Source of the DNA: Clostridia bacterium
Lineage (GTDB): Bacteria > Bacillota > Clostridia > Christensenellales > Borkfalkiaceae
Direction of reading: 5' to 3'
DNA length: 64,000 nucleotides
Assembly (NCBI GenBank): GCA_017467345.1
Contig: JAFTSI010000047.1
Span: 2,360-66,359 of the forward strand
Shown here: positions 49,369 to 62,810 of the stretch, piece after piece
Layout: each line of letters opens with the position of its first letter
Numbering within the stretch: the stretch's first letter is position 1
Translations under genes and position numbers: made by a program
Notes under the pieces: model-generated
What the model saw: only the letters and a program-made list of their open reading frames with translations
Told to the model about the DNA's origin: nothing
The model's database searches: none

Positions 49369-50100
49369 ATGAACACATATTTACTTATCGCGTTAATAGT
49401 TTTAGGGGTAGTAATAGGTATTCCATTACTGTTTATCTTAACGCTTTTAATAAGTTCACTATTTATAAGCAAGAAAAAAGAATATTCAAAGCCAAGCAAG
49501 TTCTACACATTTATGATGCTAACAGCGCATAAGTTTGTATCGTGGTTTAGTGGCGCAAGAATAAAGGTTAGTGGATTAGAAAAGTTGCCAAAAGGCAGGT
49601 TTTTAATGGTATCAAACCACCGTTCAAACTTTGACCCTATTATAACTTACACCGTGCTTGGTAAATATGGCCTTGCATTTATCTCTAAGGAAGCAAACTT
49701 TAAAATACCATTTGTGGGTAGGCTAATAACAAGGCTATGTTATTTACCCATTAACCGTGAAGACCCAAGAAAGGCAATAACTGCCATAAATAAATCGGCA
49801 GGGCTAATTAAAAGTGATGCAGTTTCAATGCTTGTTTACCCAGAGGGAACAAGGAGCAAAACTTGTGAACTACTTCCTTTTCACGACGCGGTGTTTAAGA
49901 TTGCCCAAAAGGCACAAGTTCCCGTTGTTGTAATAACGGTTAAAAATACCGAAAAAATCCGTTCAAGATTTTTCTTTAGAAAAACAATTATTGAACTTGA
50001 TATTTTAGAAACTTTCCCCGTAGATTTTGTTAAAGAAAACAAAACTGTGGTGCTTGGCGAAAGGGCAAAAGAATTAATGCTAAATAACCTTGGCAAATAA
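49369..50100 (+). CDS. plsC: 1-acyl-sn-glycerol-3-phosphate acyltransferase
   Basis: N-terminal TM helix, NHRSNFDP (HX4D) and YPEGTRS motifs. Confidence 0.85.
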   Translation: MNTYLLIALIVLGVVIGIPLLFILTLLISSLFISKKKEYSKPSKFYTFMMLTAHKFVSWFSGARIKVSGLEKLPKGRFLMVSNHRSNFDPIITYTVLGKYGLAFISKEANFKIPFVGRLITRLCYLPINREDPRKAITAINKSAGLIKSDAVSMLVYPEGTRSKTCELLPFHDAVFKIAQKAQVPVVVITVKNTEKIRSRFFFRKTIIELDILETFPVDFVKENKTVVLGERAKELMLNNLGK

Positions 50101-50109
50101 AAAGTAAAT

Positions 50110-50143
50110 AAAAAAGCACTTGCATTTTGCAAGTGCTTTTTTT
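50110..50143. terminator. Bidirectional terminator
   Basis: Stem gcacttgc/gcaagtgc flanked by A6 and T7. Confidence 0.75.
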
Positions 50144-50154
50144 GTTTAGTTAAA

Positions 50155-52770
50155 TTACGATTTTTTTCTTAAAAGCAAGAATAACGAAGTTACGCAAATT
50201 GAAACGGTTATCGCTAATATGATTAAAACATTTCGCAATGTGTTGTTGCTAACACTTAAAAAACTATCTGCGCTAACATACCCTATAATATAATCGCCAT
50301 TAGAAAGGTATGCAATTTTTGCGTATGCATCAGTTTTTTCTAAAACCCTAACTTCCGTGCCTTCGGTAAGAGTGGTAAGTAGGGTAGTAAACCCACTTTC
50401 TAAATATACATTAGTGTTTTTAACCTTTCTAACAGTAAAGGTTGTTTCTGGGTAGTTTTGCGAAAGCACTTTCGCAGTAAACTTAACGGGTATGTATCCA
50501 GAATAGTTAGTTCCGTTTACATTTACCGTAGCATAATAAAAACTTGTTCCAAGAAACTCTATTGCACCGTTAACGGTAATTTTTGTGCCTTTATCTAATG
50601 TCAATATTTCGCTGTTTGCTTTAAGGGTGAATAACGCGTCTTGAGTGATAATAGGTAGGTAGTAAGCCCTAACACCTGTGGTGGTGTAAGCCGTGTTGGT
50701 GTTTGGGTCAAAGGTCTGCTTTTGCACGGCAAGTGCGTCAAGATTATTCATTAAATATATTTGAGTAAAACCACTTATGTCTTTACCTACAAGCAAAATA
50801 AAGTTTTCTTGCCTTGCGCCTAAACCTAAACTACTTTCAAAACTTTTAGAGTATTGATAGCCACATATAAACGCACCGTAAATGCTTTCATCTTGAATTA
50901 ACCCTTTATAGTTAAATGCGTTTCCATCTTGTTCAAGTGAATAAATGTTTGCGCCATCTTTTGCGCTATAAACTGCTAAGTCGTTAAGCGCAACACCATT
51001 TTCGCCGTCAATAACAAATTCGGTGGGAACGGTTATTTCATCAAGTGATAATGTGGGCAAATTTGATGAGTATGCCGTGTATTCTAAATCATCATAAATA
51101 AAGAACACTTTATTGCTTTCAAAACTCATTGCAAAAGAGTTTGCTTTAAGAGAAGTTTCAAGGCTAAACTCGTGCGCCTTGTTTTCTACTTGGTCGTAGT
51201 ATATAACCGAACTTTCTTTAAGTGCAAACAATCCACCTGTAAGGTCGGTAGCAAGTTTTTTAATGCCTGTGGGTGAGAGCGAAAGTTCCGTTCCTACCGT
51301 GTAGTCGGTTTTAGAATACTTAAAAATACAATTATCGTATTCGCTTGTTACAAAAACATTTTCAAACACGTCAACTGCAATTAACGGATAGTTAATGCTA
51401 TTAATGGTGGTGTCTATAATCTTATCAAAATCGGTAGAGAGTTCATTTGCAGAGTAAACTAACAATTTAAACTCTGGGTCGTCCCACTTTCTTTGTGAAA
51501 TAAAGTATTTTCCGTTTTGCCAAGTTACATCAGTAATTTGCGAATCGGTTGCGTTTTCGGTAAAACTAATAATATCCGAAAGCATTTTGTTTTCAAAATT
51601 ATATATTCTTGCCGTTTTAGCCGTTTTGTTAACAAGTAGCGCGCTGTTTTCGCCAAGCGCGAAAGTATCGGGAATAAAGGTATCGCCACTACTAAAAATT
51701 AAGTTTAGCGCAAAGTTTTCTCTATCAAACAAATTGCCGTTAATATCGTTTACAACAGTTAAAATCTTTTTAGAGTTATTAAGCACGGCAACTCTACCTG
51801 CATTAAACTCAATTTCGTTTGCCGATTTACCTATACGGTTATAAGCAGTTTTGCCAGTTGCAACTGCATATCCTGTGAATACTAAAGTGTTTTCGCTAAT
51901 CTTAAACTCTTGCAAAGTGTTTTCGGTGCTATCGCTAATAAGTAGGTTGCCACCCTTAAAGCATAAGCCAGAAGGAGTGGTAAGTTTGCCTAAATCGTAG
52001 CCCTCATCAATATCAACAACAAGTTTAACCGAAGTTTTGTTTTCAATGTCAACCCTATAAATACCATCAGAGCAAAGCGCGTAAATAAAGTTACCGTCGG
52101 TAATCATTTTTTGTGGCACAAGTGAAACAAGTTCGGTTTCAGTTTGCGATAAATCGGTTGACCTTTTGCAAAGTTTAGAAGAAGTGTTTACATAATAAAT
52201 AAACCCTTGGTTAATGCAAACAGGAGTTCCTGCAAGCACACCTGCCATAGTAGATTTATTTACTGCAACGCCGTTTTCAATAACATAAAGCAAGGTGTTT
52301 GATGAATAGTTTCCAACCAAAATACCATCTTTATAATCAAAAAGGTTACAAGTAACATTTTCTGCCTGATAGTTTAACACTTCTTTGGGGTAGCCATCAG
52401 TAGATAGGTCAATTTTATAAATCTTTGCTTCATCACTAATTAAAAGTGTGTTTTCATCAAGCCTTTTAATTTGTTGAAGAGAAGTAAAGGTTTCGCTTGA
52501 CTGAATAAATGCGCCACCATTTTTGCTAATTAAAAGTTCGTTGTTGTTTTGAATAACAGCGCAAATGCCGTTATCATACAAAACTTCTTGTGGTGAGTTG
52601 AGCGAAATATCGTATTCTAACTCAGTAGTAGGCAAAAACAATGTGCTATCAACAGAGTTAGTAGCATAAGCCTTTTGCCAGTTAAAGGCAAAAATAAACG
52701 ATAGGGCGCAAAGCACCGTTAAAATAGCAATAAATAAACTTTTTTTCTTAAACATATATATAGTATTCAT
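50155..52770 (-). CDS. Secreted 871-aa protein: beta-propeller-like repeats, two SH3b-like domains, C-terminal TM anchor
   Basis: Signal peptide MNTIYMFKKKSLFIAILTVLCALSFIFA. Repetitive beta-strand-rich body. C-terminal SH3b-like segments (...GYIPVKF, ...IGYVSADSF) are followed by ILAITVSICVTSLFLLLRKKS. Confidence 0.65.
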   Translation of the reverse strand: MNTIYMFKKKSLFIAILTVLCALSFIFAFNWQKAYATNSVDSTLFLPTTELEYDISLNSPQEVLYDNGICAVIQNNNELLISKNGGAFIQSSETFTSLQQIKRLDENTLLISDEAKIYKIDLSTDGYPKEVLNYQAENVTCNLFDYKDGILVGNYSSNTLLYVIENGVAVNKSTMAGVLAGTPVCINQGFIYYVNTSSKLCKRSTDLSQTETELVSLVPQKMITDGNFIYALCSDGIYRVDIENKTSVKLVVDIDEGYDLGKLTTPSGLCFKGGNLLISDSTENTLQEFKISENTLVFTGYAVATGKTAYNRIGKSANEIEFNAGRVAVLNNSKKILTVVNDINGNLFDRENFALNLIFSSGDTFIPDTFALGENSALLVNKTAKTARIYNFENKMLSDIISFTENATDSQITDVTWQNGKYFISQRKWDDPEFKLLVYSANELSTDFDKIIDTTINSINYPLIAVDVFENVFVTSEYDNCIFKYSKTDYTVGTELSLSPTGIKKLATDLTGGLFALKESSVIYYDQVENKAHEFSLETSLKANSFAMSFESNKVFFIYDDLEYTAYSSNLPTLSLDEITVPTEFVIDGENGVALNDLAVYSAKDGANIYSLEQDGNAFNYKGLIQDESIYGAFICGYQYSKSFESSLGLGARQENFILLVGKDISGFTQIYLMNNLDALAVQKQTFDPNTNTAYTTTGVRAYYLPIITQDALFTLKANSEILTLDKGTKITVNGAIEFLGTSFYYATVNVNGTNYSGYIPVKFTAKVLSQNYPETTFTVRKVKNTNVYLESGFTTLLTTLTEGTEVRVLEKTDAYAKIAYLSNGDYIIGYVSADSFLSVSNNTLRNVLIILAITVSICVTSLFLLLRKKS

Positions 52771-52974
52771 ACCCTTTATTTTACCATATAATTTAATATT
52801 TGTATATAATTTTCGTCAATTTTTTCTATTTTTCGCTTATTTTCCTTATAAATTAAAAATCCACCCCAAAAACCCAAAAAAACTCAAAAAATATTTGAAT
52901 TGTTGACTACCATATGTCATAAATAGCCGTTATTATATAGACAAAAAAGCGAACAAATGTTCGTAAAATCACAA

Positions 52975-53016
52975 ATTGTATTGCAAAAGGGGTGATTAGT
53001 CAAGTAGTATATGACA
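52975..53016 (-). promoter_or_regulatory. Minus-strand promoter with upstream TGTCATATACTAC element (drives 50155..52770)
   Basis: The minus strand reads TGTCATATACTAC-TTGACT, 17-nt spacer, TACAAT. Confidence 0.55.
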
Positions 53017-53026
53017 TAAAAATTGG

Positions 53027-53062
53027 TATTTTTGAACAAAAATATATTTTTGAACAAAAATA
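53027..53062. promoter_or_regulatory. Two perfect tandem copies of an 18-bp palindrome-containing unit (operator-like)
   Basis: TATTTTTGAACAAAAATA occurs twice (53027..53044 and 53045..53062). The arms ATTTTTG/CAAAAAT are inverted. The site lies just upstream of the -35 for 53149..53655. Confidence 0.6.
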
Positions 53063-53073
53063 GACATATATCG

Positions 53074-53103
53074 TTGACTTAATGAAAAAAACAATTTTAT
53101 AAT
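53074..53103 (+). promoter_or_regulatory. Promoter of 53149..53655
   Basis: TTGACT, 18-nt spacer, TATAAT. Confidence 0.55.
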
Positions 53104-53148
53104 TAGGCTAAAACTTTAAAAGTTAAGGGAAAAGGAAAGGTAAACATT

Positions 53149-53655
53149 ATGAACATTTACTACGCAAAATCTATATTATACGCATACTCATCTATTGATA
53201 AACTCACGGCTCAAATTGACGATATAGTTTTAAAGCACGCGTTGGCATCAATGAACAATTGTTCGCCCTGCTTTAAGCAATGCGATAAGATTGTGGCGTT
53301 TACAAATAAGAAGATTAGGCTAATGGAAATGAAAGATTTAGTTGAAAGAGCGCTTAACGAATATACGCAAGAAGAAATCACATTACTTGACTATAAGTAT
53401 TTTAGAATTAAGCCAAGAAGTGTATATAAAGATTTTGATTGCCATAGTAGGTCATATTTTAGAAAGCAAAACAAGTTAAGCCGAAAGTTTGCCGAAAATA
53501 TGGAAAGGTTTGGGCTAAACGATAAAAGGTATAAAGAGATTTATCTTTCAATGGATTTTTTCAAAGAACTATTAAAGCGCGTGATAGAACACGACTTAAT
53601 GAACAACAAAAACAAAAAAGCGCCTGTTAAAATGGCGCTTAAAAAATCGGCATAA
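53149..53655 (+). CDS. Hypothetical 168-aa protein; possible phage late-gene regulator (ArpU / sigma region-4-like)
   Basis: The size, the position upstream of the packaging genes and the C-terminal basic helical segment (SRSYFRKQNKLSRKFAENM) suggest this function. No firm motif. Confidence 0.35.
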   Translation: MNIYYAKSILYAYSSIDKLTAQIDDIVLKHALASMNNCSPCFKQCDKIVAFTNKKIRLMEMKDLVERALNEYTQEEITLLDYKYFRIKPRSVYKDFDCHSRSYFRKQNKLSRKFAENMERFGLNDKRYKEIYLSMDFFKELLKRVIEHDLMNNKNKKAPVKMALKKSA

Positions 53656-54378
53656 TTATTCGTATTCGTTTTCGTCATAGTAGTTAGTTTTTTCCTTTTG
53701 CCGTTTAGGTTTAAGGGCAACTACTAAGGCGATAATCCCAGCAAGCGCAAGGCAGGCGTAAACTGCAACTTTAAGCCCAAAATAATTATTTGGCTCATCA
53801 CTTTCAATCTTTTCTTCGCTTATATCTGGTTTAACTGTGGGCGTTTCAATAGAGTTAGGGTGGTTAGGGATAGAAAAGGGCAAAAGGGCATCTTCCTTAA
53901 TATACCCAAGTTTGCCGTTATAAGAAACAAAATAAACAGTAGGCGAATCGCCATTTTTATAGAAACCGTAGTAGTTCATACTGCGGTTTTTAAATAGGTA
54001 TTGAATAGGGTTAGAAAGTAAATGGTCGCTATAAAGTGTTGCGCTATCGCTTGTAGTTAAAGTTAAAAGTGGATAGCAATCGCTATCATCATCAAGGCTA
54101 TCTGGCGATAAAAACTCTTTTGGCACAAACCCATCAATTTTCGGCAAAGTGCTTGCGCCAAACTCTATGTGGTAGGCGTTTAAAGTTTCGCCAAGTTTCT
54201 TAACATAATAGGTTTTAGGCATATAGCAAATTAGGTTAGAAAGTTCTTGGTCATAGTAAACGGGCGCGTTGTCAAGGCTTATTAGTAGGTATTCGGCTTT
54301 ACCAACTGCTTTAACCGAAACACTTGAAAAGTTTAATGGCAAAAACACGGCTAAAAAAAATAAGAGTAGTTTTTTCAT
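53656..54378 (-). CDS. Secreted 240-aa protein with two SH3b-like segments and a C-terminal TM anchor
   Basis: Signal peptide MKKLLLFFLAVFLPLNFSSVSVKA and C-terminal helix VAVYACLALAGIIALVVAL. The GFVPKEFL and LGYIKEDAL ends resemble SH3b domains. Confidence 0.6.
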   Translation of the reverse strand: MKKLLLFFLAVFLPLNFSSVSVKAVGKAEYLLISLDNAPVYYDQELSNLICYMPKTYYVKKLGETLNAYHIEFGASTLPKIDGFVPKEFLSPDSLDDDSDCYPLLTLTTSDSATLYSDHLLSNPIQYLFKNRSMNYYGFYKNGDSPTVYFVSYNGKLGYIKEDALLPFSIPNHPNSIETPTVKPDISEEKIESDEPNNYFGLKVAVYACLALAGIIALVVALKPKRQKEKTNYYDENEYE

Positions 54379-54497
54379 AAGAGTTCCTTTTTTTAAAAAG
54401 TGATTAAACCTAATTATAAAAAAGTCAAAGTTAAATATAGTGCAATATTAAACGGAAAAAGGGTGATAATTGTCAAAATAAAAAATTAAAAATTGCT

Positions 54498-54538
54498 TGT
54501 CATATACCACTTGAAATACAAAAACCGTTTGATAAAAT
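54498..54538 (+). promoter_or_regulatory. Promoter of the terminase-capsid operon with upstream TGTCATATACCAC element
   Basis: TGTCATATACCAC-TTGAAA, 16-nt spacer, TAAAAT. Confidence 0.5.
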
Positions 54539-54555
54539 TCGGCTAAAGGTGAAAT

Positions 54556-55998
54556 ATGTTAGAAGTTAAAGGGTTAATCCAAAGAATAAACGATATAGAT
54601 AAAATACTTTCGGCAAGGAAATCGCTTGGCAACCTATCTAACTATAACTCTGGCGAAAAGGTTCACCAAAAGCAACTTGCCTTTCACAAATGCAAAAAGA
54701 AAAACCGTTGGGTATTCGGTGGCAACCGAAGTGGCAAAACAGAGTGTGGCGCAGTTGAAGTGGTGTATATGGCAAGGGGAATACACCCGTATAGAAAGAA
54801 GAAAGATGGAGTGTTTGGTTGTGTGGTATCGCTATCGCACCAAGTTCAAAGAGATGTGGAGCAAGCAAAAATACTGCATTACCTAAACCCATCTTGGATA
54901 GTAGATGTGAGTATGCTATCGGGCAAAAAAGAGAGTATGGAATATGGCGTAATAGACCAAATTCGCATACGCAATGTGTTTGGTGGAATAAGTGTTATAG
55001 GCTTTAAATCGTGCGACCAAGGCAGAGAAAAGTTTCAAGGCAGTTCGCTTGATTTTGTGTGGTTTGATGAAGAGCCACCAAAAGATATCTATGATGAGTG
55101 CCGTATGCGACTACTTGATAAAAAGGGCGAAATGTTCGGCACAATGACGCCACTTAAAGGGCTAACCTACATATATAACGAAATATACCTAAACGAAAGT
55201 GGTTCTAAAGAAGTGTGGTGTGAGTTTATGGAGTGGGCAGACAACCCCTTTTTAGACCAAGCCGAAGTGGAAAGCGTTTCAAGTTCGCTACCCGAAGATG
55301 AACTTGAAAGCAGAAGATATGGCAGGTTTAAATCGGGCACAGGGCTTGTGTATCCAGAGTTTGATGAAAACTTTCATGTGATTGACCCCATATCACTTCC
55401 AAAAGACTGGCAAGACACCTTGTCTATTGACCCAGGCTTAAATAACCCCCTATCTGCGCATTGGTATTCGGTTGACTATGACGGAAATATATATGTTGTT
55501 GCCGAACACTATCAAGCAGGCAAAGATGTGTTTTACCACGCCGAAAGAATTAAAGAGATATCGCGAAAGTTAGGCTGGAAAACAGATGGCAAGGGTAGAA
55601 TAAGCGCGCTAATTGATAGCGCGGCAAACCAAAAGACCTTGGCAGGCGTAAAAAGTGTTAGCGAACTGTTTTACGATTGCGGAATACTTGTAAACCCAAA
55701 TGTGAATAAAGATTTATTTAGTGGAATAGAGCGTGTTAAACGATATTTTAACAAAAAAAAGGGCTTGCCAAAAATATTCATATTTAAGTGTTGCGTAAAC
55801 CTTATTCGTGAACTTAAAGGCTACTTTTGGGGGAGTGGCGATAACCCTGTAAAAAAAGACGACCACTCACTTGATGAGTTAAGATACTATGTAATGACTA
55901 AACCTTCATTAGAGATGAAACCTACTGCAAAAACGGTGATACAAAAAGATAAGGAAAGGCTAATAAGGAAGATAGTAAATGAAAAGAAAAGAAGATAA
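54556..55998 (+). CDS. terL: Phage terminase large subunit
   Basis: Walker A GGNRSGKTECGA and Walker B DFVWFDEEP. C-terminal RNaseH-like nuclease region (LSIDPG..., ALIDSAA, DDHSLDELRY). Confidence 0.9.
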   Translation: MLEVKGLIQRINDIDKILSARKSLGNLSNYNSGEKVHQKQLAFHKCKKKNRWVFGGNRSGKTECGAVEVVYMARGIHPYRKKKDGVFGCVVSLSHQVQRDVEQAKILHYLNPSWIVDVSMLSGKKESMEYGVIDQIRIRNVFGGISVIGFKSCDQGREKFQGSSLDFVWFDEEPPKDIYDECRMRLLDKKGEMFGTMTPLKGLTYIYNEIYLNESGSKEVWCEFMEWADNPFLDQAEVESVSSSLPEDELESRRYGRFKSGTGLVYPEFDENFHVIDPISLPKDWQDTLSIDPGLNNPLSAHWYSVDYDGNIYVVAEHYQAGKDVFYHAERIKEISRKLGWKTDGKGRISALIDSAANQKTLAGVKSVSELFYDCGILVNPNVNKDLFSGIERVKRYFNKKKGLPKIFIFKCCVNLIRELKGYFWGSGDNPVKKDDHSLDELRYYVMTKPSLEMKPTAKTVIQKDKERLIRKIVNEKKRR

Positions 55999-56275
55999 AC
56001 AGGTAAAAGAGAAAGAAGATATCAACCGTGCGCTAATGAAAAAGGCGCTTGGCTACACGGCAGAAGAAACGGTGGAAGAATATTCAATGAAAGAAGATGG
56101 CGAAGTGTTGCTATCAAAAAAGAAGGTAACCAAAAAAAATGTTCCACCAGACATTACTGCCTTAAAGATTTTATTAGAAAGCAAAGAGCCAGAATTAAAC
56201 GAAATGACTGATGAACAACTTGAACAAGAGAAAATACGGCTCTTAAAAATATTAAGAGAAATTGAAAAGGCTTAA
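55979..56275 (+). CDS. Small charged 98-aa protein, possibly small-terminase-like
   Basis: Overlaps the terL stop. The KKVTKKNVPPDITALKILLESK segment resembles the ...PPD..A..FWLKNR motif of some Firmicute phage small terminases. Weak. Confidence 0.35.
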   Translation: MKRKEDKQVKEKEDINRALMKKALGYTAEETVEEYSMKEDGEVLLSKKKVTKKNVPPDITALKILLESKEPELNEMTDEQLEQEKIRLLKILREIEKA

Positions 56276-56286
56276 AAGGAGAAGAA

Positions 56287-58152
56287 ATGCAAGAAAACAA
56301 CGGTAAAATTACCAAATCACTTGAACAAAAAGCCAAGGAAAAGGCTCAAAAAGAACTTGTTGCTTTTGTCAAGGCAGATTTTGAAAGGCGCAGAAAAGAA
56401 AGGGTTGCGTTAGAGCGACAATGGGAACTAAACCTAAACTTTTTAAAGGGCAATCAACATTGTAGAATAGGTCTATCTGGCAATGTAGAAAAGGAAGAAA
56501 AGGAATACTTTTGGCAATCAAAAGAAGTGTTTAATCACATATCGCCCATAATGGAAACGCGCCTTGCAAGGCTATCAAGGGTTCACCCAGAAATATCGGT
56601 GCGCCCAAAATCAGATGATGATGAAGATGTTTCAAAGGCAAGCATTGCCGAAAAGTTGCTATCAGGCGCATTTAAGTCGGCAGGTCTAACAGAAACGGTA
56701 AGGCGCGCAAACACTTGGAGCGAAACTTGTGGAACGGCATTTTACAAGGTGGTATGGAATAGCAAAAGTGGTATGAAAACAGGCATTGTTGATGGCGAAG
56801 AAGTAAGGGAAGGGGAAGTGGAAATATCGGTTGTATCCCCCTTTGAAATATTCCCCGATAACTTGTATGCCGAAAAGATTACCGACCTAAAAAGCATAAT
56901 CCACGCAAAAGCCGTGCCCGTTTCGGTAATAAGGGAAAGGTATGGCGTAAGTTTAGCAGGTGGCGATATTGATGTGTTTGGTTTAACCCCACTAAATAAC
57001 TACAACTCTCAAAATGACGAAAGAAAGATACAAGACGCAGTTATCGTTATAGAGCGATACGACGCGCCAAGTTTAGAATACCCAAAAGGTAGGTTAATAA
57101 CAGTTGCAGGCGATAAACTTTTATATAACGGTGAATTGCCATACCTAAACGGTGAAAATGGCGCAAGAACATTTCCTTTTGTAAAGCAAGATTCCTTGCC
57201 CATAGCAGGAAGTTTTTTTAGTGCAAGCATAGTAGAGCGTATGATACCTGTTCAACGCGCATTTAATGCCGTTAAAAACAGAAAACACGAATTTTTGAAT
57301 AGGCTATGCACGGGTGTATTAACTGTGGAAGATGGCGCAGTTGACCTTGACGATTTAGAGGGCGAAGGCTTATCACCGGGTAAGGTATTAGTGTATAGGC
57401 AAGGCTCAAAAGCGCCCGAAATGATGGATGAATCTGCAATGCCACCAGATTTTGATTTAGAAGAAGAAAAACTACTCAATGAGTTTATAAGCATAAGTGG
57501 TGTTAGCGAAGTTTCAACGGCATCAAAGAACGCAAATCTATCAAGTGGTTCTGCGCTTGAATTGCTTGTTGAACAAGATAACGAAAGGCTTGTAATGAAC
57601 GCAGAGTCTATTAGAAACTGTTATTTAGAAATGGCGCGCCAAACATTAAGGCTATACGCACAGTTTATATCAGGGCTTAAAGCAGTGAGTTATAAAGATG
57701 CCTTTGGCAGAACCAAAATATGCTATGCCGATAAATCAACTGCACTTGCAGATGATGTGTATTTAGAGAGCGAAAACGAACTGTCATCAACACCAAACAA
57801 GCAAAAGGAAACTTTGTTTAGATTATACGATAGTGGCTTATTGTTTGATAATGATGGAAAACTTCGCCCAACCACAAAAGAGAAGTTGTTATCACTTCTT
57901 GGCTACAAAGACCTTGACTACCAAAAAGGGCTTTCAAGGTTGCACGAAGAAAAGGCTCAAAACGAAAACGAAAAGATAAGAGAGTTTGGTGTAGAAGTTG
58001 ATGAAATTGACGACCACGGCATACATATTGACGAACATATACGCTATGCGTTAAGCGAATATGAAGAACTTAGTGAAGAAGAAAAAAAGCGAATATTTAA
58101 TCACATAAACACACACAAGCAAATAATAAAAGAGTCGGCAAAAGCCGAATAG
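56287..58152 (+). CDS. Phage portal protein (621 aa)
   Basis: Called from its position between the terminase and scaffold/capsid genes, its size and its acidic C-terminal tail. No search possible. Confidence 0.65.
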   Translation: MQENNGKITKSLEQKAKEKAQKELVAFVKADFERRRKERVALERQWELNLNFLKGNQHCRIGLSGNVEKEEKEYFWQSKEVFNHISPIMETRLARLSRVHPEISVRPKSDDDEDVSKASIAEKLLSGAFKSAGLTETVRRANTWSETCGTAFYKVVWNSKSGMKTGIVDGEEVREGEVEISVVSPFEIFPDNLYAEKITDLKSIIHAKAVPVSVIRERYGVSLAGGDIDVFGLTPLNNYNSQNDERKIQDAVIVIERYDAPSLEYPKGRLITVAGDKLLYNGELPYLNGENGARTFPFVKQDSLPIAGSFFSASIVERMIPVQRAFNAVKNRKHEFLNRLCTGVLTVEDGAVDLDDLEGEGLSPGKVLVYRQGSKAPEMMDESAMPPDFDLEEEKLLNEFISISGVSEVSTASKNANLSSGSALELLVEQDNERLVMNAESIRNCYLEMARQTLRLYAQFISGLKAVSYKDAFGRTKICYADKSTALADDVYLESENELSSTPNKQKETLFRLYDSGLLFDNDGKLRPTTKEKLLSLLGYKDLDYQKGLSRLHEEKAQNENEKIREFGVEVDEIDDHGIHIDEHIRYALSEYEELSEEEKKRIFNHINTHKQIIKESAKAE

Positions 58153-58171
58153 AATAAGGGAGGGAAAACAA

Positions 58172-58615
58172 ATGGAAAACGGAAACGGTGAACAAATGGA
58201 AGTTAAAGCGCAACCCGTAGCGACGGAAGAAAATAAAGGCGAAGAAAAAACTGAAATCTCATTGGGAAAGTTTAAAGATGTAAACGCGCTACTTAGCGCA
58301 TATAACTCTTTGCAGTCTGAGTTTACCAAACGCTGTCAGCGCATCAAAGAGTTGGAGGGTAATTTAAGTGCAAACGATAATGCAGGCAAAAGCCAAACCG
58401 AAAGCACGGAAGTTGCTTGTAAAAGTAATGAAAATGTAAAAGATGAACCCTTATCCAAAGAGCAGGTTATAAAGGAGTATCTTAAAGGGTTACTTGAAAA
58501 CAAGAAAACGGCAATAATTATGGAAAGTGGTGGAGTGGGCTTAAAGACCCCTACCGATAAACCCAAAAGCATTGCCGAAGCGGGCAAACTCGCAATAGAA
58601 ATTTTAAAAAAATAA
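58172..58615 (+). CDS. Phage scaffolding protein (147 aa)
   Basis: Small, helical, charged protein directly upstream of the major capsid gene. Confidence 0.55.
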   Translation: MENGNGEQMEVKAQPVATEENKGEEKTEISLGKFKDVNALLSAYNSLQSEFTKRCQRIKELEGNLSANDNAGKSQTESTEVACKSNENVKDEPLSKEQVIKEYLKGLLENKKTAIIMESGGVGLKTPTDKPKSIAEAGKLAIEILKK

Positions 58616-58637
58616 AAAGGATTAAAAAGGAAAAATT

Positions 58638-59798
58638 ATGGCAGTAACTTTAACTAATGCGGATAAAGCGCTTAAAACTTTATATTTAGATGTAGTAGCA
58701 TCACAACTCAACACAGAAATCAACCCCTTTTTATCGGCAGTAAAACAAAGCACAGATGATGTATGGGGAAAAGAAGTTCGTAAACTTGCTATTTACGGTG
58801 TAAACGGTGGTATCGGTGCAGGCACGGAAGATGGCGACCTTCCCGACGCAACAGGCAACAACTACGAACAATTTGTTCTTACTCTTAAAAACCTTTACGG
58901 CACTATTGAAATTAGCGACAAGGCAATTCGCGCAAGTGAAAACAATTCTGGCGCGTTTGTAAGTTTACTCAATGCCGAAATGGAAGGACTTTTAAAAGCA
59001 AGCAGTTTCAACTTTGGCAGAATGCTTTTTGGTGATGGCTCTGGCGAACTTGCAAAAATTGTTTCAGTATCAGAAAATGTTGCAGTTTTAGACACCGTTA
59101 AAAACCTTATTGAAGGTATGGTAATTGATGTAAGAAAAAATAGTGGCGAAACCGTTCACGGTGCAAAGCGCATTGTATCGGTTGATAGAAAGAACAAATC
59201 GGTAGTATTAAGTGGTAGTGTAGAAGATGCAGTAGAAGGCGATATCGTAACCGTTCAAGGCTCATATAACAACGAAATCACAGGTCTTAAAGCAATCTTT
59301 GGCGAAGGCAACACTCTCTACGGCTTAAACAAAGAAACTCACGGTTGGCTCAACCCCTACAAAAAGGAAGTTGAAGGCGAAATCACCGAACTTGATATTC
59401 AAACTGCACTTGACACCATTGAAGAACAATCTGGTGGCGCAGTAAACTTTATCATTTGTTCGTGGGGTGTGCGCCGTGCCCTTCAAAAACTCTTTGCCGA
59501 AAACAAACGCAACATTGACACCGAAGTTTTGGCAGGTGGTTATAGAGCAATGACCTATAACGGTATTCCTATCGTAGCAGATAGATTTTGCCCAGAGGGA
59601 ACTATGTATTTACTCAACACCAACGACTTTACCTTATGTCAACTTTGCGACTGGCAATGGCTTGAAGGCGAAGATGGAAAGGTGTTAAAACAAATTGCAG
59701 GTAAGCCTGTATACACGGCTACCTTGGTAAAATATGCCGACCTTATTTGCGCAAGACCAATCGGTCAAGGTATGATAAGCGGTATCACCGAAGCGTAA
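58638..59798 (+). CDS. Phage major capsid protein (386 aa)
   Basis: Called from its position and size. The N-terminal ...ALKTLYLDVV...INPFL pattern is typical of major capsid families. A strong RBS precedes it and a hairpin follows directly. Confidence 0.65.
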   Translation: MAVTLTNADKALKTLYLDVVASQLNTEINPFLSAVKQSTDDVWGKEVRKLAIYGVNGGIGAGTEDGDLPDATGNNYEQFVLTLKNLYGTIEISDKAIRASENNSGAFVSLLNAEMEGLLKASSFNFGRMLFGDGSGELAKIVSVSENVAVLDTVKNLIEGMVIDVRKNSGETVHGAKRIVSVDRKNKSVVLSGSVEDAVEGDIVTVQGSYNNEITGLKAIFGEGNTLYGLNKETHGWLNPYKKEVEGEITELDIQTALDTIEEQSGGAVNFIICSWGVRRALQKLFAENKRNIDTEVLAGGYRAMTYNGIPIVADRFCPEGTMYLLNTNDFTLCQLCDWQWLEGEDGKVLKQIAGKPVYTATLVKYADLICARPIGQGMISGITEA

Positions 59799-59812
59799 AC
59801 CTAAAATTACTT

Positions 59813-59848
59813 TTGCCGAGTTTAGAAGTTAAACTCGGCAAATTTTAT
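59813..59848 (+). terminator. Hairpin/terminator immediately after the capsid gene
   Basis: 12-bp stem ttgccgagttta/taaactcggcaa followed by atttt. Confidence 0.6.
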
Positions 59849-59863
59849 AATAAGGAGAAGAGT

Positions 59864-60418
59864 ATGAAAATAAGCGATATAGTAAATTGCGTAGCCACCT
59901 ACTTGGCGCGCGAAAATGTGCTTAAATACCTTAACGGCGAAACGGAAAATATAGGCGACGCAAAAGAGCAAATAGACACTATGGTTCGCGCTTGCAACTT
60001 GGTTATAGGCGAACTTGCAAGTTCGTATATTCCTATGGTAAAACGCGAAAAGGTTATTCCTACCGATAGCAAAGTTTACTATGGCAGTTTAACAGAAACT
60101 GCTGTGGAAATACTTGCAGTAGAAAACGAAAGTGGCAAATCGGCAGTTTACGATTTTAGCCCCGAATACTTAAAAACAGGTGTTAGCCCTGCCGTTATAG
60201 TTTATAAATACTTGCCTGCAAACTACGATTTAAACGACACCGTTGGCTTTGACGCAAAGGTAAGCGCAAGAATACTTGCCTACGGCGTGGCGGCGGAAAT
60301 AACCTTAATAGAGCGCAACTTTGATGAAAGTGTAAACTGGCGCAAACGCTACACTAATGCCGTTTCCTTACTTACAGAGCCAAAGAGTTTTGTAATGGCA
60401 AAAAGGAGATGGCTATAA
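59864..60418 (+). CDS. Hypothetical 184-aa phage structural-module protein (possible head completion/adaptor)
   Basis: An AAGGAG RBS precedes the ATG at 59864 (the track ORF start 59747 overlaps the capsid gene). The stop overlaps the next start (TAATG). Confidence 0.5.
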   Translation: MKISDIVNCVATYLARENVLKYLNGETENIGDAKEQIDTMVRACNLVIGELASSYIPMVKREKVIPTDSKVYYGSLTETAVEILAVENESGKSAVYDFSPEYLKTGVSPAVIVYKYLPANYDLNDTVGFDAKVSARILAYGVAAEITLIERNFDESVNWRKRYTNAVSLLTEPKSFVMAKRRWL

Positions 60419-61629
60419 TGAAATTACACGGCTTTAACAAGGTGAGTTTGAAAGTAAATAAACACCTGTTAAACTTTAAAAATGACCAAGCGTTTGAAAG
60501 TGGTTGTAAGGTAGAAGAAGATAAACTATTTTCTGGCATAGGCTTAATAGAGTTAGAAAACTCACTTAATAATTTAGCGCCTATTGAATATTTTTCTTGT
60601 GCAAAAAATGAGTATGTGTATTGCGCCGATAATAACATTTATTCCATTACTAAAAGTGGCTATGAAAGGGTGGGTATGCTTAACTTTAAGGGTAAGCCAA
60701 AGTTTGTTGAACTATCTTTTTATGGCAAACCTAACCCTTACGCATTATATGATGGCTCACTATATCCTTTAACCGATATAGGCGCAGAAATAGGCATAAT
60801 TAAGTGCGATAACTGTCAAACGGAAAAGGGCTACTTTTTTTGCGAAAAGGGTTATGAACTATATTTTGCCCCTGCAATAGATATATACGAAAAGGGTTAT
60901 GACGCAATCAATGTAAACTGCGCCATTTTTGATATTAACGACGGCAAAGTTTTAGGTGTTTATAAGGTTAATGATGAACTAAAAATCATCACCGAAAATC
61001 GCGCCTACTCATTAAACTTAACAAACGATTTAAGTAGGGCAGAAATCAAGTGCGAAAAGTTTTTTTGCGAAAGGGTAAGTGGCGCAATAACTGTTAACGG
61101 CGCACTCTATTTAATAGGCAAAACCCAAATACTTGAATACTCAAATAGCGATAAAGGCGGAGTGCCTCTACCTTTTGAAATTGAAAGTGTTTTAAGTTTA
61201 GGAAAATACCAAAACAATTTAGTGGTGCATTTACTATCAAACGGCAAAGAAAAAATTATAGTTTTATCAAAAGATAAAAGTATAAAAGTAATATGTGTTG
61301 ATGGGCTAATTCATAACGGAAATGGCAAGTTTATATGTAAACAAAACAATATGTTTTATGAGTTAGGTTTAGCAAAAAATTGCTACTATGAAAGCAAAAA
61401 AATACCCCTTAAATTAGATAAAGAAAAGTGCCATTTAATAGCAGTATCTTTTAACTCTAAAACCAAAGGCGTATTTTCAGTTTTTGGCGATTTTGGTAGC
61501 AAAGAATATAACATTAACGCAGGCGAAAACTACATAAAACTAAACGCCTTTTCAAAGCACTTTACCTTTAAGTTTTATTTAGAAAGTGGCGCAGAAATAA
61601 CTGAGTTTAGCGCGCAATATACCGAATAG
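60418..61629 (+). CDS. Hypothetical 403-aa beta-rich protein
   Basis: ATG at 60418, 9 nt after a GGAG, overlapping the upstream stop (alternative ATG at 60409). No recognisable motif. Confidence 0.55.
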   Translation: MKLHGFNKVSLKVNKHLLNFKNDQAFESGCKVEEDKLFSGIGLIELENSLNNLAPIEYFSCAKNEYVYCADNNIYSITKSGYERVGMLNFKGKPKFVELSFYGKPNPYALYDGSLYPLTDIGAEIGIIKCDNCQTEKGYFFCEKGYELYFAPAIDIYEKGYDAINVNCAIFDINDGKVLGVYKVNDELKIITENRAYSLNLTNDLSRAEIKCEKFFCERVSGAITVNGALYLIGKTQILEYSNSDKGGVPLPFEIESVLSLGKYQNNLVVHLLSNGKEKIIVLSKDKSIKVICVDGLIHNGNGKFICKQNNMFYELGLAKNCYYESKKIPLKLDKEKCHLIAVSFNSKTKGVFSVFGDFGSKEYNINAGENYIKLNAFSKHFTFKFYLESGAEITEFSAQYTE

Positions 61630-61646
61630 AATATAGGAGAATAAAA

Positions 61647-62543
61647 ATGGAATATGTAACCCCAACTTCTCACGAAGAATTAATAAACACCTTGCGCGAT
61701 ATATTTGTGTATTATCGCATACAAAAGCAAGATTTTTACCCAGAAGAGATGCAAAAGATTTCGCTTGAAAAACTACCCGATATAAATAGAAGCGAAAGTG
61801 AACTTTTTGAACTTGCTAAAACCCTTTTAAGTGGCGCGCACGAAAAGGAAATATTTAACTATAAACAAGGTATTGCATTAGAGATTGAAAACATAGAAAA
61901 ATCTTTGCAACAATTAGAAGAAACATTTGAAAAAAAGGTTAGCGCACTAAATGTTAGCCACGCAAACGCCATTGAAGAATATAAAATTTTAGCAAGCAAA
62001 AACGGTATTATGAACACCGATATCTTTATTGAAAAGGTATCAACCCTAAAAGCCGATTTTGAAATGGAAATATCTAAACTAAATAGCGAAAAGCAGTTAG
62101 AAATACAAGAATTGAACTCAAAAAAAGAAGAATTAATAATTAAAAAAGAAAATGCAAAAAGCCACTTTGAAATGGTGCATACTGCAGAAGTCAATTCTAA
62201 AACGGCAGAACTTATGGAACTTGAAACCCAAAACCATTACGACATTTTAAGGTATAACAATAGTGTTGATGAAAAAAACATTAAATACTCTAACTATGTT
62301 GACCAACTTCGCGCATCACTCTTGCTTAGGTATTTAGAAATCCGTAGTGAGCCACTTAGCAAAGATGAACTTGTAAATCTTGGCTACTATACTGATGTAA
62401 TAGAGTGCATTGATGCATATTATTCAACCTTAACGCCTACTGAGGCATATGAAGATATGATAGGCGACCCAACGATAGGAATGTATTTAGAAGATTACTA
62501 TCAAATAATTTTAATGCACTATAAAACTGCGGCAAACGCATAA
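61647..62543 (+). CDS. Hypothetical 298-aa coiled-coil protein
   Basis: GGAG RBS. The central region is rich in heptad-like E/K/L repeats. Confidence 0.55.
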   Translation: MEYVTPTSHEELINTLRDIFVYYRIQKQDFYPEEMQKISLEKLPDINRSESELFELAKTLLSGAHEKEIFNYKQGIALEIENIEKSLQQLEETFEKKVSALNVSHANAIEEYKILASKNGIMNTDIFIEKVSTLKADFEMEISKLNSEKQLEIQELNSKKEELIIKKENAKSHFEMVHTAEVNSKTAELMELETQNHYDILRYNNSVDEKNIKYSNYVDQLRASLLLRYLEIRSEPLSKDELVNLGYYTDVIECIDAYYSTLTPTEAYEDMIGDPTIGMYLEDYYQIILMHYKTAANA

Positions 62544-62549
62544 AAAACA

Positions 62550-62576
62550 AAAAAACCCTGTTTTCAGGGTTTTTTT
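62550..62576 (+). terminator. Intrinsic terminator ending the phage-like operon
   Basis: Stem aaaccctg/cagggttt with a T7 run. Confidence 0.8.
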
Positions 62577-62810
62577 GACTAAAAAGGAAATTTGTAAAAA
62601 AATGAAAATTAACAAAAATTAGAAACGGCGACCAAACTTCCTATAAATAGGCATCAGCCCGCTTCAATGAAGCGCCGTTTTTAACATTTATAATACTAAA
62701 TAAAACCCAAAAAGTCAATGCATTTAATTAAAAACTAAAAAATATTTCACTTTACTTAAACAAAAATATATGTTATTATATAGTTTAGAAAAAAATGTGG
62801 GCGAAAGGCT

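What the first reader, a model, noticed from the sequence alone, without database searches (positions are those of the whole stretch)
50155..62576. Phage-derived head-only island between plsC and ispG: terminase, portal, scaffold and capsid, but no recognisable integrase, replication, tail or lysis genes
The 12.4-kb interval is bounded by the housekeeping genes plsC and ispG. It contains a possible ArpU/sigma-like regulator (53149..53655), TerL, a small TerS-like ORF placed after TerL, a portal, a scaffold, a major capsid and three unknown proteins (184, 403 and 298 aa). It also holds two secreted SH3b-containing, membrane-anchored proteins (871 aa and 240 aa). I see no integrase or recombinase, no repressor/antirepressor switch, no primase or helicase, no tape measure, sheath or tube, and no holin or endolysin. 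No att-like direct repeats are visible at the borders. The ORFs are intact and tightly coupled (TAATG overlap at 60416..60420), with good RBSs, promoters and terminators. That argues against simple decay. Options include a domesticated capsid system (GTA-like or capsid-forming-satellite-like packaging module), a minimal podovirus-like particle whose three unknown genes are the adaptor/nozzle, or a remnant.
Basis: partly seen in the sequence, partly recalled or inferred. Interest (0 to 1): 0.62.

Follow-up and report, generated by a model that had tools for sequence, protein, structure and literature searches.

The report
Inherited short-tailed phage particle genes
This block is a phage-derived gene set for a DNA-filled capsid with a stub tail, inherited like a housekeeping locus across gut Christensenellales, and it is the best candidate for the unidentified genes behind the small capsids of random bacterial DNA recently seen for this group in human stool.

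Summary
An acyltransferase (plsC-like) and ispG flank TerL, a small TerS-like ORF, portal, scaffold and capsid genes, and no integrase, replication, lysogeny or lysis genes were detected. "Head-only" is wrong. AlphaFold2 plus Foldseek show the 184-aa protein is a podovirus head-to-tail adaptor and the 403/406-aa protein a P22 gp10-type tail nozzle. The gene order matches P22.

The core TerL–TerS-like–portal–scaffold–capsid–adaptor–nozzle is colinear in all 80 retrieved loci, out of 115 species genomes that hit, all Christensenellales-like MAGs. Its tree matches the ispG+neighbour tree in 8 of 11 splits. TerL and capsid diverge about as slowly as ispG. Close species pairs give dN/dS of 0.03–0.2 for every gene, unknowns included.

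The 168-aa protein belongs to a sigma-70 region-4-like family. A perfect LexA box (52950–52963) lies in its control region, as do all 14 perfect boxes found in 1.27 Mb of window and related DNA.

Best reading: a host-owned, probably DNA-damage-linked, gene-transfer-agent-like short-tailed particle system. It resembles FpGTA of Faecalibacterium in kind but probably not in descent. Particle production and DNA content are untested.

The parts
50155..52770 (-). 871-aa surface protein: signal peptide/anchor, large all-beta (propeller-like) region, two SH3b-like repeats, C-terminal membrane anchor. Sits at this position in 20 related loci. Its role in the system is unknown.
   Evidence: SH3_3 3.4e-4; one member hits DUF5050. 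Position conserved.
52950..52963 (.). Perfect LexA (Cheo) box CGAACAAATGTTCG in the divergent control region between the 871-aa gene and the regulator gene
   Evidence: Only perfect box in the 64-kb window (expected 0.02). All 14 perfect boxes in 1.27 Mb of window and related loci lie in the control region at the regulator gene (13 upstream of its called start, 1 just inside it). 21 of 35 loci have a box with at most 1 mismatch.
52975..53003 (-). Promoter-like site TTGACT-17-TACAAT reading towards the 871-aa gene. The LexA box lies about +5 to +18 of it. The upstream element TGTCATATACTAC is shared with the TerL promoter.
   Evidence: Consensus match only, function inferred.
53027..53062 (.). 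Two perfect tandem 18-bp dyad units TATTTTTGAACAAAAATA just upstream of the regulator's -35. Candidate operator.
   Evidence: D20, I4. Related TTTTGTACAAAA words are enriched in the same region of relatives (13 of 33 loci, expected 0.67).
53074..53103 (+). Best sigma-70-like promoter of the island (TTGACT-18-TATAAT, 11 of 12) in front of the regulator gene
53149..53655 (+). 168-aa sigma-70 region-4-like (RinA/ArpU/DUF1492-type) putative activator of the particle operon
   Evidence: Conserved in front of TerL in 35 loci.
53656..54378 (-). 240-aa extracytoplasmic protein: signal peptide, two SH3b-like repeats, C-terminal membrane anchor. Lies antisense between regulator and TerL at every locus where the stretch upstream of TerL holds the regulator.
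   Evidence: SH3_3 in 6 of 27 orthologues. Position in 36 loci. dN/dS 0.15 in a close pair.
54498..54538 (+). Promoter-like site for the particle operon: TGTCATATACCAC element, TTGAAA-16-TAAAAT with TG
   Evidence: The shared element is not recurrent in relatives.
54556..55998 (+). Large terminase (Terminase_6 type) with Walker A GGNRSGKT
55979..56275 (+). 98-aa small-terminase-like protein that matches only the C-terminal part of TerS profiles. No DNA-binding N-domain.
56287..58152 (+). Portal protein (P22/SU10 type)
58172..58615 (+). 147-aa scaffold-like protein by position. About half the length of the scaffold-position proteins in phage relatives (282 and 320 aa).
   Evidence: No family hit.
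58638..59798 (+). Major capsid protein (SU10_MCP / phrog_14242, HK97 type)
59812..59842 (+). 14-bp-stem terminator-like hairpin directly after the capsid gene. Likely attenuator between head and tail genes.
59864..60418 (+). 184-aa head-to-tail adaptor (podovirus type)
   Evidence: AF2 pLDDT 91.9. Foldseek hits: P1 connector 2.7e-6, then adaptors of Pa223, KHP30, PhiM1, SU10 and T7 gp11. phrog_2377 adaptor hit in 2 of 33 members.
60409..61629 (+). Tail nozzle / tail hub (P22 gp10 type): beta-propeller plus beta-sandwich. The ATG at 60418 (TAATG overlap) gives the 403-aa form.
   Evidence: AF2 pLDDT 89.5. Foldseek hits: Pa223 tail 1.9e-15 (TMq 0.66), P22 gp10 4e-12, Sf6 gp8, Pam1, T7, SU10. phrog_3287 virion structural protein in 16 of 33 members.
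61647..62543 (+). 298-aa helical protein of unknown fold in the position of P22 gp26 (needle/plug). Present in 41 loci and replaced by unrelated proteins in others.
   Evidence: Role inferred from position only.
62548..62577 (.). Palindromic terminator-like hairpin closing the operon

Best explanation
The island is a domesticated descendant of a short-tailed (P22/SU10-like) phage, kept by the host as a particle-making cassette.

Shown here:
- It encodes a large terminase, a truncated TerS-like protein, portal, scaffold, HK97-type capsid protein, head-to-tail adaptor and tail nozzle, plus a sigma-region-4-like regulator.
- No integration, replication, immunity or (in this lineage) lysis function was detected.
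- The core is colinear across the Christensenellales species retrieved, co-diverges with neighbouring housekeeping genes, and is under purifying selection.
- A LexA box is conserved in the regulator's control region.

Inferred mechanism:
- DNA damage, or another signal that removes LexA, de-represses the control region.
- The sigma-like protein then turns on the TerL-to-tail operon.
- Procapsids assemble on the short scaffold.
- The Terminase_6-type TerL, with a TerS-like partner that lacks a DNA-recognition domain, fills them by headful packaging with more or less random host DNA.
- Adaptor and nozzle close the portal.
- Particles are released by lysis functions encoded elsewhere in this lineage. 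Holins sit at the cassette end in some distant lineages.

This makes it a gene-transfer-agent-like system. It is the best candidate for the unidentified locus behind the 4-6-kb GTA-like packaging reported for Christensenellaceae in human stool.
For: Gene identities come, and from structure matches for the nozzle and adaptor.

Conservation:
- 115 species genomes encode a capsid relative (53-85% identity).
- All 80 loci kept show the same order.
- IMG/VR holds only short contigs with the same cassette and the same host flanks, and no complete phage.

Vertical descent:
- The TerL+portal+capsid tree shares 8 of 11 splits with the ispG+neighbour tree. None of 10,000 label permutations reached more than 6.
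- dN of TerL and capsid is 0.91 and 1.00 times that of ispG over the same genome pairs.

Selection in close pairs (dN/dS):
- Portal 0.04, capsid 0.04, nozzle 0.08 (L021/L024).
- TerL 0.03, regulator 0.13, SH3b protein 0.15 (L052/L053).
- The 298-aa protein 0.075 (L061/L063).

LexA box.

Non-autonomy: no integrase, replication or att.

The same family in a real phage context has a longer scaffold and portal and many extra genes.

Literature (PMC12946183): GTA-like packaging of about 4.1 kb (HGM11616) and 6.3 kb (QANA01) in Christensenellaceae, with no gene cluster named for them. FpGTA in Faecalibacterium has the same kind of layout.
Against: - No particle, transcript or packaged DNA was observed for this organism. 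No RNA or virome run holds the stretch.
- No receptor-binding protein, tail fibre, ejection proteins or endolysin were identified in the window, and no holin in this lineage.
- The rest of the genome could not be searched.
- It was not shown that the two packaging taxa of the paper carry this cassette.
- In this window the LexA box sits best on the promoter reading towards the 871-aa gene, 199 nt from the regulator's start. The LexA-to-regulator link is therefore inferred.
- One sub-clade lacks TerL, the regulator and the SH3b gene at the locus.
- The tree comparison uses genes adjacent to the cassette, so it shows co-divergence with the neighbourhood, not with the whole genome.
Confidence: 0.6

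Rival explanations
1. The particles are made but serve something other than gene transfer. Possible roles are a PBSX-like killer or lysis particle, DNA release for the community, or an anti-phage decoy. Packaging of host DNA would then be incidental.
For: SOS-linked control is typical of PBSX-type defective phages. No receptor-binding or ejection proteins were identified. PMC12946183 itself leaves open whether FpGTA delivers DNA.
Against: Killing particles described so far rely on contractile or long tails, and this one has only a nozzle (from general knowledge). Terminase, TerS-like protein and portal are under strong purifying selection, so DNA filling matters.
Confidence: 0.2
2. It is a capsid-forming satellite (cf-PICI-like) or otherwise helper-dependent element. 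It would borrow fibres, lysis and replication from a resident phage and mobilise itself.
For: It has its own capsid, portal and terminase but no fibre or lysis genes. IMG/VR classifies fragments of it as viral.
Against: No integrase, primase/replication, att or excision functions. It is at a fixed locus with the same host flanks in distant species, and it co-diverges with those flanks. It has its own adaptor and nozzle. Depth is even with the flanks, and no excised or empty form appears in metagenome contigs.
Confidence: 0.07
3. It is a decaying prophage remnant with no present function. It looks conserved only because the lineage is young or the region is protected by neighbours.
For: It lacks most phage modules. 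One sub-clade has lost TerL at the locus.
Against: All ORFs are intact across species whose capsid proteins are only 53-85% identical. dN/dS is 0.03-0.2 for every gene, including the unknowns. Rates equal those of ispG.
Confidence: 0.05

Closest known systems
FpGTA (operon I) of Faecalibacterium prausnitzii, Nat Commun 2026;17:2046 (PMC12946183)
   Same: Both are gut Bacillota chromosomal operons of about 8-10 kb. Both carry a TerS without a DNA-binding domain, TerL, portal, capsid and short-tailed-phage proteins, and neither has integration or replication genes. Both are near-ubiquitous in their clade. FpGTA has been shown to make roughly 40-nm tailless-looking capsids holding about 8.5-9 kb of random host DNA.
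   Different: The FpGTA capsid protein is named 'N4-gp56 family', and a Prp-like protease lies between portal and capsid. Here the capsid is SU10_MCP / phrog_14242 and the equivalent gene is a scaffold-like one. This points to a separate domestication, but only from names, with no direct sequence comparison. FpGTA has a second locus with fibre, RBP, holin and endolysin; none could be sought here. TerS-like follows TerL here. The LexA box, sigma-like regulator and antisense SH3b gene are not described for FpGTA.
RcGTA-type gene transfer agents of Alphaproteobacteria
   Same: Both are domesticated, vertically inherited head-and-packaging clusters under host regulators. Both have a TerS lacking sequence-specific DNA binding, and accessory loci elsewhere (general knowledge; PMC6363796, PMC10883770 listed).
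   Different: RcGTA is siphovirus-like with tape measure and tail tube, uses CtrA/GafA/quorum control, and occurs in a different phylum. The two are not homologous beyond folds: GTA neck proteins appear only at E around 0.4.
P22 / Sf6 / SU10 / Pa223 podovirus tail machines
   Same: Gene order TerL, portal, scaffold, coat, adaptor (gp4), nozzle (gp10), then a protein at the gp26 position. Adaptor and nozzle folds match.
   Different: No tailspike, ejection proteins or recognisable needle. No replication, lysis or lysogeny modules. Sequence identity is about 10%.
Jasminevirus podophages of Arthrobacter (about 46 kb), and an uncultured Clostridiales phage-like region (L096)
   Same: These are the closest phage relatives of TerL, portal and capsid together, at 24-30% identity. 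L096 shows the same capsid, adaptor, nozzle order.
   Different: They are full phages with tail spike, endolysin and many early genes. Their scaffold is 282-320 aa against 147 aa here, and their portal 681-716 aa against 621 aa.
PBSX of Bacillus subtilis
   Same: An SOS-induced, host-fixed defective phage that packages random 13-kb host DNA (general knowledge).
   Different: PBSX is myovirus-like with a contractile tail and acts as a killer particle. It is unrelated in sequence.

Membership tests
Gene transfer agent (functional class) | Phage-derived structural and packaging genes fixed in the host chromosome, without functions for autonomous replication, integration or excision | tested here: met
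   No integrase, replication or att. Same result in 80 related loci.
Gene transfer agent (functional class) | Vertical inheritance with purifying selection over long evolutionary time | tested here: met
Gene transfer agent (functional class) | Particles package random host DNA rather than the element's own genome, in pieces too short to carry the whole gene set | not testable with these tools
   Only indirect support. 4.1- and 6.3-kb host fragments were reported for two Christensenellaceae taxa. The TerL-to-last-gene operon is 8.0 kb. Whether those taxa carry this cassette was not checked.
Gene transfer agent (functional class) | Expression under host regulatory control | tested here: inconclusive
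   A conserved LexA box lies in the control region. Which promoter it governs, and whether LexA binds it, are not shown.
Gene transfer agent (functional class) | Delivery of packaged DNA to recipient cells | not testable with these tools
   No receptor-binding or ejection proteins identified
FpGTA lineage (homology) | N4-gp56-family capsid protein with a Prp-like protease gene between portal and capsid | tested here: inconclusive
   No Prp-like gene here. The capsid is named differently by the same annotation pipeline. FpGTA sequences could not be fetched for a direct comparison.
Podovirus (P22/SU10-type) tail machine | Dodecameric adaptor and hexameric beta-propeller nozzle encoded after the capsid gene | tested here: met
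   Fold matches. Oligomeric state not tested.
Podovirus (P22/SU10-type) tail machine | Tail needle/plug, tailspikes or fibres, and ejection proteins | tested here: not met
   No match for the 298-aa protein. No other candidates in the island.
Capsid-forming satellite (cf-PICI) | Integrase, replication/primase module, att sites, variable presence among strains, no tail genes | tested here: not met
Functional or recently inactivated prophage | Integrase/att, lysogeny switch, replication and lysis modules; patchy distribution | tested here: not met

The most novel reading that the evidence does not exclude
This cassette would be a second, independently domesticated podovirus-type gene transfer agent. 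It would predate much of the Christensenellales radiation and be unrelated in capsid lineage to FpGTA. It would produce the 4-6-kb host-DNA capsids seen in stool. A LexA-then-sigma-like-activator cascade would switch it on. The always-linked membrane-anchored SH3b proteins would be a dedicated host-side partner for release of the particles or for their uptake by kin.
Probability: 0.35. Interest if true: 0.8.

Novelty: new variant of a known kind. Interest (0 to 1): 0.66.

Why it matters
Very few gene transfer agents have a known gene cluster, and until 2026 none was known in gut commensals. The 2026 stool study saw GTA-like packaging in Christensenellaceae but named no genes for it.

A defined, order-wide cassette with an apparent DNA-damage switch gives that observation a testable genetic basis. 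It points to a second origin of podovirus-type GTAs. It also suggests that Christensenellales, a heritable and health-associated gut group, routinely export chromosomal DNA in capsids.

There is a practical consequence too. Virus-prediction pipelines file fragments of this host locus as viral contigs: 15 IMG/VR entries are in fact this cassette.

Tried and rejected
- Whole-genome tools (genome search, the fetch from genomes) were shut. I could not look for a second tail-fibre/lysis locus, for TerL in the TerL-less sub-clade, for empty sites, or for the share of Christensenellales that carry the cassette.
- RNA and virome run searches found nothing. DNA metagenome contigs show only even depth and no credible excision joint; the joints listed have 21-nt sides.
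- I tested whether the 17-nt element shared by the TerL and 871-aa-gene promoters recurs in relatives. It does not exceed shuffles. I treat it as window-specific.
- NG86 dN/dS over all pairs was discarded because dS is saturated. Only close pairs and dN ratios to ispG are used.
- The 298-aa protein gave nothing with Pfam (a weak DUF7934 hit below cut-off), PHROGs, a PDB profile search, or hhalign against the proteins that replace it in other lineages.
- I tried to reach FpGTA relatives through capsid representatives and cluster names. This yielded no organism names.
- The 98-aa protein does not match the small ORF after TerL in phage Jasmine.
- Encapsulin was considered and dropped, because portal and terminase are present.


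Full report
**1. What is in the sequence**

- An acyltransferase (49369-50100, PF01553) and GcpE/IspG (62811-63851) bound the interval.
- On the + strand lie TerL (54556-55998; Terminase_6N 2e-13, phrog_2 2e-29), a 98-aa ORF, the portal (56287-58152; phrog_156 1.3e-30), a 147-aa ORF, and the capsid protein (58638-59798; phrog_14242 2.1e-61, SU10_MCP).
- Three ORFs without hits follow: 59864-60418, 60409/60418-61629 and 61647-62543.
- Upstream are a 168-aa ORF (+), a 240-aa ORF (-) and an 871-aa ORF (-).
- No integrase, repressor, replication, tape-measure, sheath, holin or endolysin family was hit.
- No att-like border repeats exist.
- GC content is host-like throughout.
- A strong hairpin terminator follows the capsid gene (59812-59842) and another closes the operon (62548-62577).

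**2. The 'unknowns' are tail parts**

I built alignments of orthologues from related loci and used them for AlphaFold2.
- *The 403/406-aa protein.* The model is confident (pLDDT 89.5). It is a beta-propeller plus beta-sandwich. Its best PDB matches are podovirus nozzle / tail-hub proteins: Pa223 (1.9e-15, TMq 0.66), P22 gp10 (4e-12), Sf6 gp8, Pam1, Pan3, T7 gp12 and SU10. Sixteen of 33 orthologues also hit phrog_3287 'virion structural protein'.
- *The 184-aa protein.* The model (pLDDT 91.9) matches head-to-tail adaptors of Pa223, KHP30, PhiM1, SU10, GP4 and T7 gp11, and the P1 connector.
- *Gene order.* TerL, portal, scaffold, coat, adaptor, nozzle is the order of P22 genes 2, 1, 8, 5, 4, 10. 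The 298-aa protein therefore sits where gp26 (needle) would be.
- *The 298-aa protein.* It is helical and gave no significant match anywhere. Its role is inferred from position only.
- *The 98-aa ORF.* It is TerS-like in 22 of 27 orthologues. It matches only positions 200-250 of a 319-position TerS profile, so it has no DNA-binding N-domain.
- *The 168-aa ORF.* Its family carries a sigma-70 region-4 helix-turn-helix: Sigma70_r4_2 in 9 of 28 members, DUF1492 in 4 of 28, and weak PDB sigma hits.

The block is therefore not head-only. It encodes a capsid with a minimal stub tail.

**3. Distribution and inheritance**

A scan of one genome per species found capsid relatives in 115 genomes. The 80 loci kept are all Christensenellales-like MAGs (Christensenella, Borkfalkia, Onthoplasma, Scatosoma and others) at 53-85% capsid identity.

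tblastn and ORF clustering give the conserved layout:
- Core: [871-aa gene <] regulator > SH3b-240 < TerL > TerS-like > portal > scaffold > capsid > adaptor > nozzle > [298-aa].
- Small lineage-specific extras occur: c18 after TerS-like and c10 after the capsid gene.
- ispG and its neighbours follow in about 20 closer species.
- A polysaccharide deacetylase and an SSB gene precede the cassette in both near and distant species.
- None of the loci holds an integrase.

IMG/VR holds only 15 short contigs with the same cassette and the same host flanks, and no complete phage.

Co-divergence was tested on 14 taxa. A TerL+portal+capsid tree and an ispG+neighbour tree share 8 of 11 splits. The conflicts are confined to poorly supported nodes. 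None of 10,000 label permutations gave more than 6 shared splits. Branch lengths are similar.

Rates match housekeeping genes. Over the same genome pairs, dN of TerL and capsid is 0.91 and 1.00 times dN of ispG.

Synonymous sites are saturated for most pairs. Close species pairs give dN/dS as follows:
- Portal 0.04, capsid 0.04, nozzle 0.08 (L021/L024).
- TerL 0.03, capsid 0.06, regulator 0.13, SH3b-240 0.15 (L052/L053).
- The 298-aa protein 0.075 (L061/L063).

In metagenome contigs the island has the same depth as its flanks. It is present in a roughly 97%-identical strain. No credible empty-site or excision joint appears.

Caveat: the housekeeping genes used are physically adjacent to the cassette, so the trees show co-divergence with the neighbourhood only.

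**4. Origin**

The same capsid family is large: 328 clusters at 50% identity with E <= 1e-30. It includes real phages.
- A 36%-identical capsid lies in a Clostridiales phage-like region with many small early genes and an Acb2/Tad1-like gene. That region has a 681-aa portal, a 320-aa scaffold-position protein, then capsid, a 127-aa protein, a 172-aa protein and a 580-aa protein.
- The 172-aa and 580-aa proteins are remote matches of the adaptor and nozzle families (hhalign E 4.7e-4 and 2.9e-5).
- The nearest cultured phages for TerL, portal and capsid together are 46-kb Arthrobacter podophages (Jasminevirus) at 24-30% identity.
- Against these relatives the cassette's scaffold is about half as long (147 aa against 282-320 aa) and its portal is shorter. 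A shortened scaffold would fit a smaller capsid, but this is inference.

**5. Regulation**

A lead from earlier notes of this scan (an 'SOS box' at related loci) was tested here.
- The window has exactly one perfect Firmicutes-type LexA box, CGAACAAATGTTCG, at 52950-52963. The chance expectation is 0.02.
- In 1.27 Mb of window and related loci there are 14 perfect boxes. All 14 lie in the control region at the regulator gene: 13 upstream of its called start and 1 just inside it. Twenty-one of 35 loci have a box with at most 1 mismatch.
- In this window the box lies about +5 to +18 of a minus-strand promoter-like site (53003-52975) that reads towards the 871-aa gene. It is 199 nt upstream of the regulator's ATG.
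- In lineages without the 871-aa gene the box is still upstream of the regulator.
- The same region holds two perfect 18-bp dyad units (53027-53062). Words such as TATGACA (16 of 33 loci, expected 0.66) and TTGTACA (13 of 33) are enriched in relatives.
- LexA control of the unit is therefore likely. Which promoter it governs is unresolved.

**6. The SH3b proteins**

The 240-aa protein has a signal peptide, two SH3b-like repeats, a C-terminal membrane anchor and a short tail (SH3_3 in 6 of 27 orthologues). Its gene lies antisense between the regulator and TerL at every locus where the stretch upstream of TerL holds the regulator.

The 871-aa protein has the same ends around a large all-beta region. 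It keeps its position in 20 loci.

Both proteins are exported and membrane-anchored, so they are unlikely to be virion parts. Their tight linkage suggests a host-side role such as wall binding for release or a receptor. I found no evidence to choose between these.

**7. Lysis and distal tail**

In more distant lineages the cassette ends with one or two holin genes (Phage_holin_1, BhlA). Unrelated 337-661-aa proteins replace or precede the 298-aa protein after the nozzle.

The window's lineage has no holin and no room for one before ispG. No endolysin or fibre was seen in any locus.

By analogy with FpGTA, which keeps fibre, RBP, holin and endolysin in a second locus 125 kb away, such genes may lie elsewhere.

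**8. Comparison with what is known**

The closest described system is FpGTA of Faecalibacterium (PMC12946183).
- It is a 10.5-kb operon with a TerS lacking a DNA-binding domain, TerL, portal, capsid and short-tailed-phage proteins.
- It is ubiquitous in its genus.
- It has been shown to yield roughly 40-nm capsids holding about 8.5-9 kb of random host DNA.
- The same study recorded GTA-like packaging in Christensenellaceae: HGM11616, peak 4.07 kb, and QANA01, 6.3 kb (supplement). It searched for gene clusters only in Faecalibacterium, Gemmiger and Onthomonas MAGs.
- The FpGTA capsid is named 'N4-gp56 family', and a Prp-like protease lies between portal and capsid. Here the capsid is of SU10_MCP type and the corresponding gene is scaffold-like.
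- The two are therefore probably separate domestications. I could not fetch FpGTA sequences to test this directly.

Literature searches found no description of the Christensenellales cassette.

**9. Verdict**

- Domestication (fixed locus, vertical descent, selection, non-autonomy) is well supported. I put it near 0.9.
- That the cassette makes particles which package host DNA in a GTA-like way is the most likely function. It is untested, at about 0.6.
- Earlier agents of this scan reached the same reading on sister loci. Those are not independent evidence.

Noticed in passing
window 52965-53150 and 54378-54558: The two bidirectional promoter regions that bracket the regulator/SH3b-240 gene pair are imperfect inverted copies. 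One block is TCAAGT(A/G)GTATATGACA with its -10, shared by the 871-aa-gene and TerL promoters. The other is TTTTATAATTAGG(C/T)T, shared by the regulator and SH3b-240 promoters. This suggests two co-regulated pairs. The first block is not recurrent in relatives.
   Followed up: partly
window 50110-50142: The hairpin terminator between the acyltransferase and the 871-aa gene has contig word depth of 200-540 in gut metagenomes, against about 7 for its surroundings. It also has many loose ends, so it belongs to a high-copy hairpin repeat family. This may be the Gut-1-type family noted elsewhere in this window.
   Followed up: no
L044, L048, L050, L054, L059, L061-L063, L073, L075, L076, L086, L088: In one sub-clade the locus starts at the TerS-like gene, with housekeeping genes (Tex, pseudouridine synthase, PGI) directly upstream. 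TerL, the regulator and SH3b-240 are absent there, yet portal and capsid stay under strong purifying selection. TerL may have moved to another locus.
   Followed up: partly
L040-L080 (for example L060:13636-14400, L059:14618-14860): Distant lineages end the cassette with holin genes (Phage_holin_1 and/or BhlA family). They also carry an extra conserved roughly 110-aa gene between capsid and adaptor and a roughly 70-aa gene after the TerS-like gene. None of these is present in the window.
   Followed up: partly
L041:13510-16747, L071:13727-14917, L045:13636-15120: The slot after the nozzle gene is variable. Unrelated 337-, 661-, 396- and 494-aa proteins with no family hits replace or precede the 298-aa protein. 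That pattern is expected for distal-tail or receptor-binding parts.
   Followed up: partly
L096 (GCA_030156665.1 contig JASGMB010000002.1, 99826-115719): A bona fide phage-like region in a Clostridiales MAG carries the same capsid family at 36% identity. It also holds an Acb2/Tad1-hairpin (anti-defence) gene, a phage metallopeptidase and an Rv2179c-like exonuclease.
   Followed up: no
L081-L095 (IMG/VR): Fifteen IMG/VR 'viral' contigs are fragments of this host cassette with host flanks (polysaccharide deacetylase, SSB). They are likely false viral calls.
   Followed up: yes
window 53252-53265: A second near-LexA box (TGAACAATTGTTCG, one mismatch) lies inside the regulator's coding region. It may be chance.
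   Followed up: no
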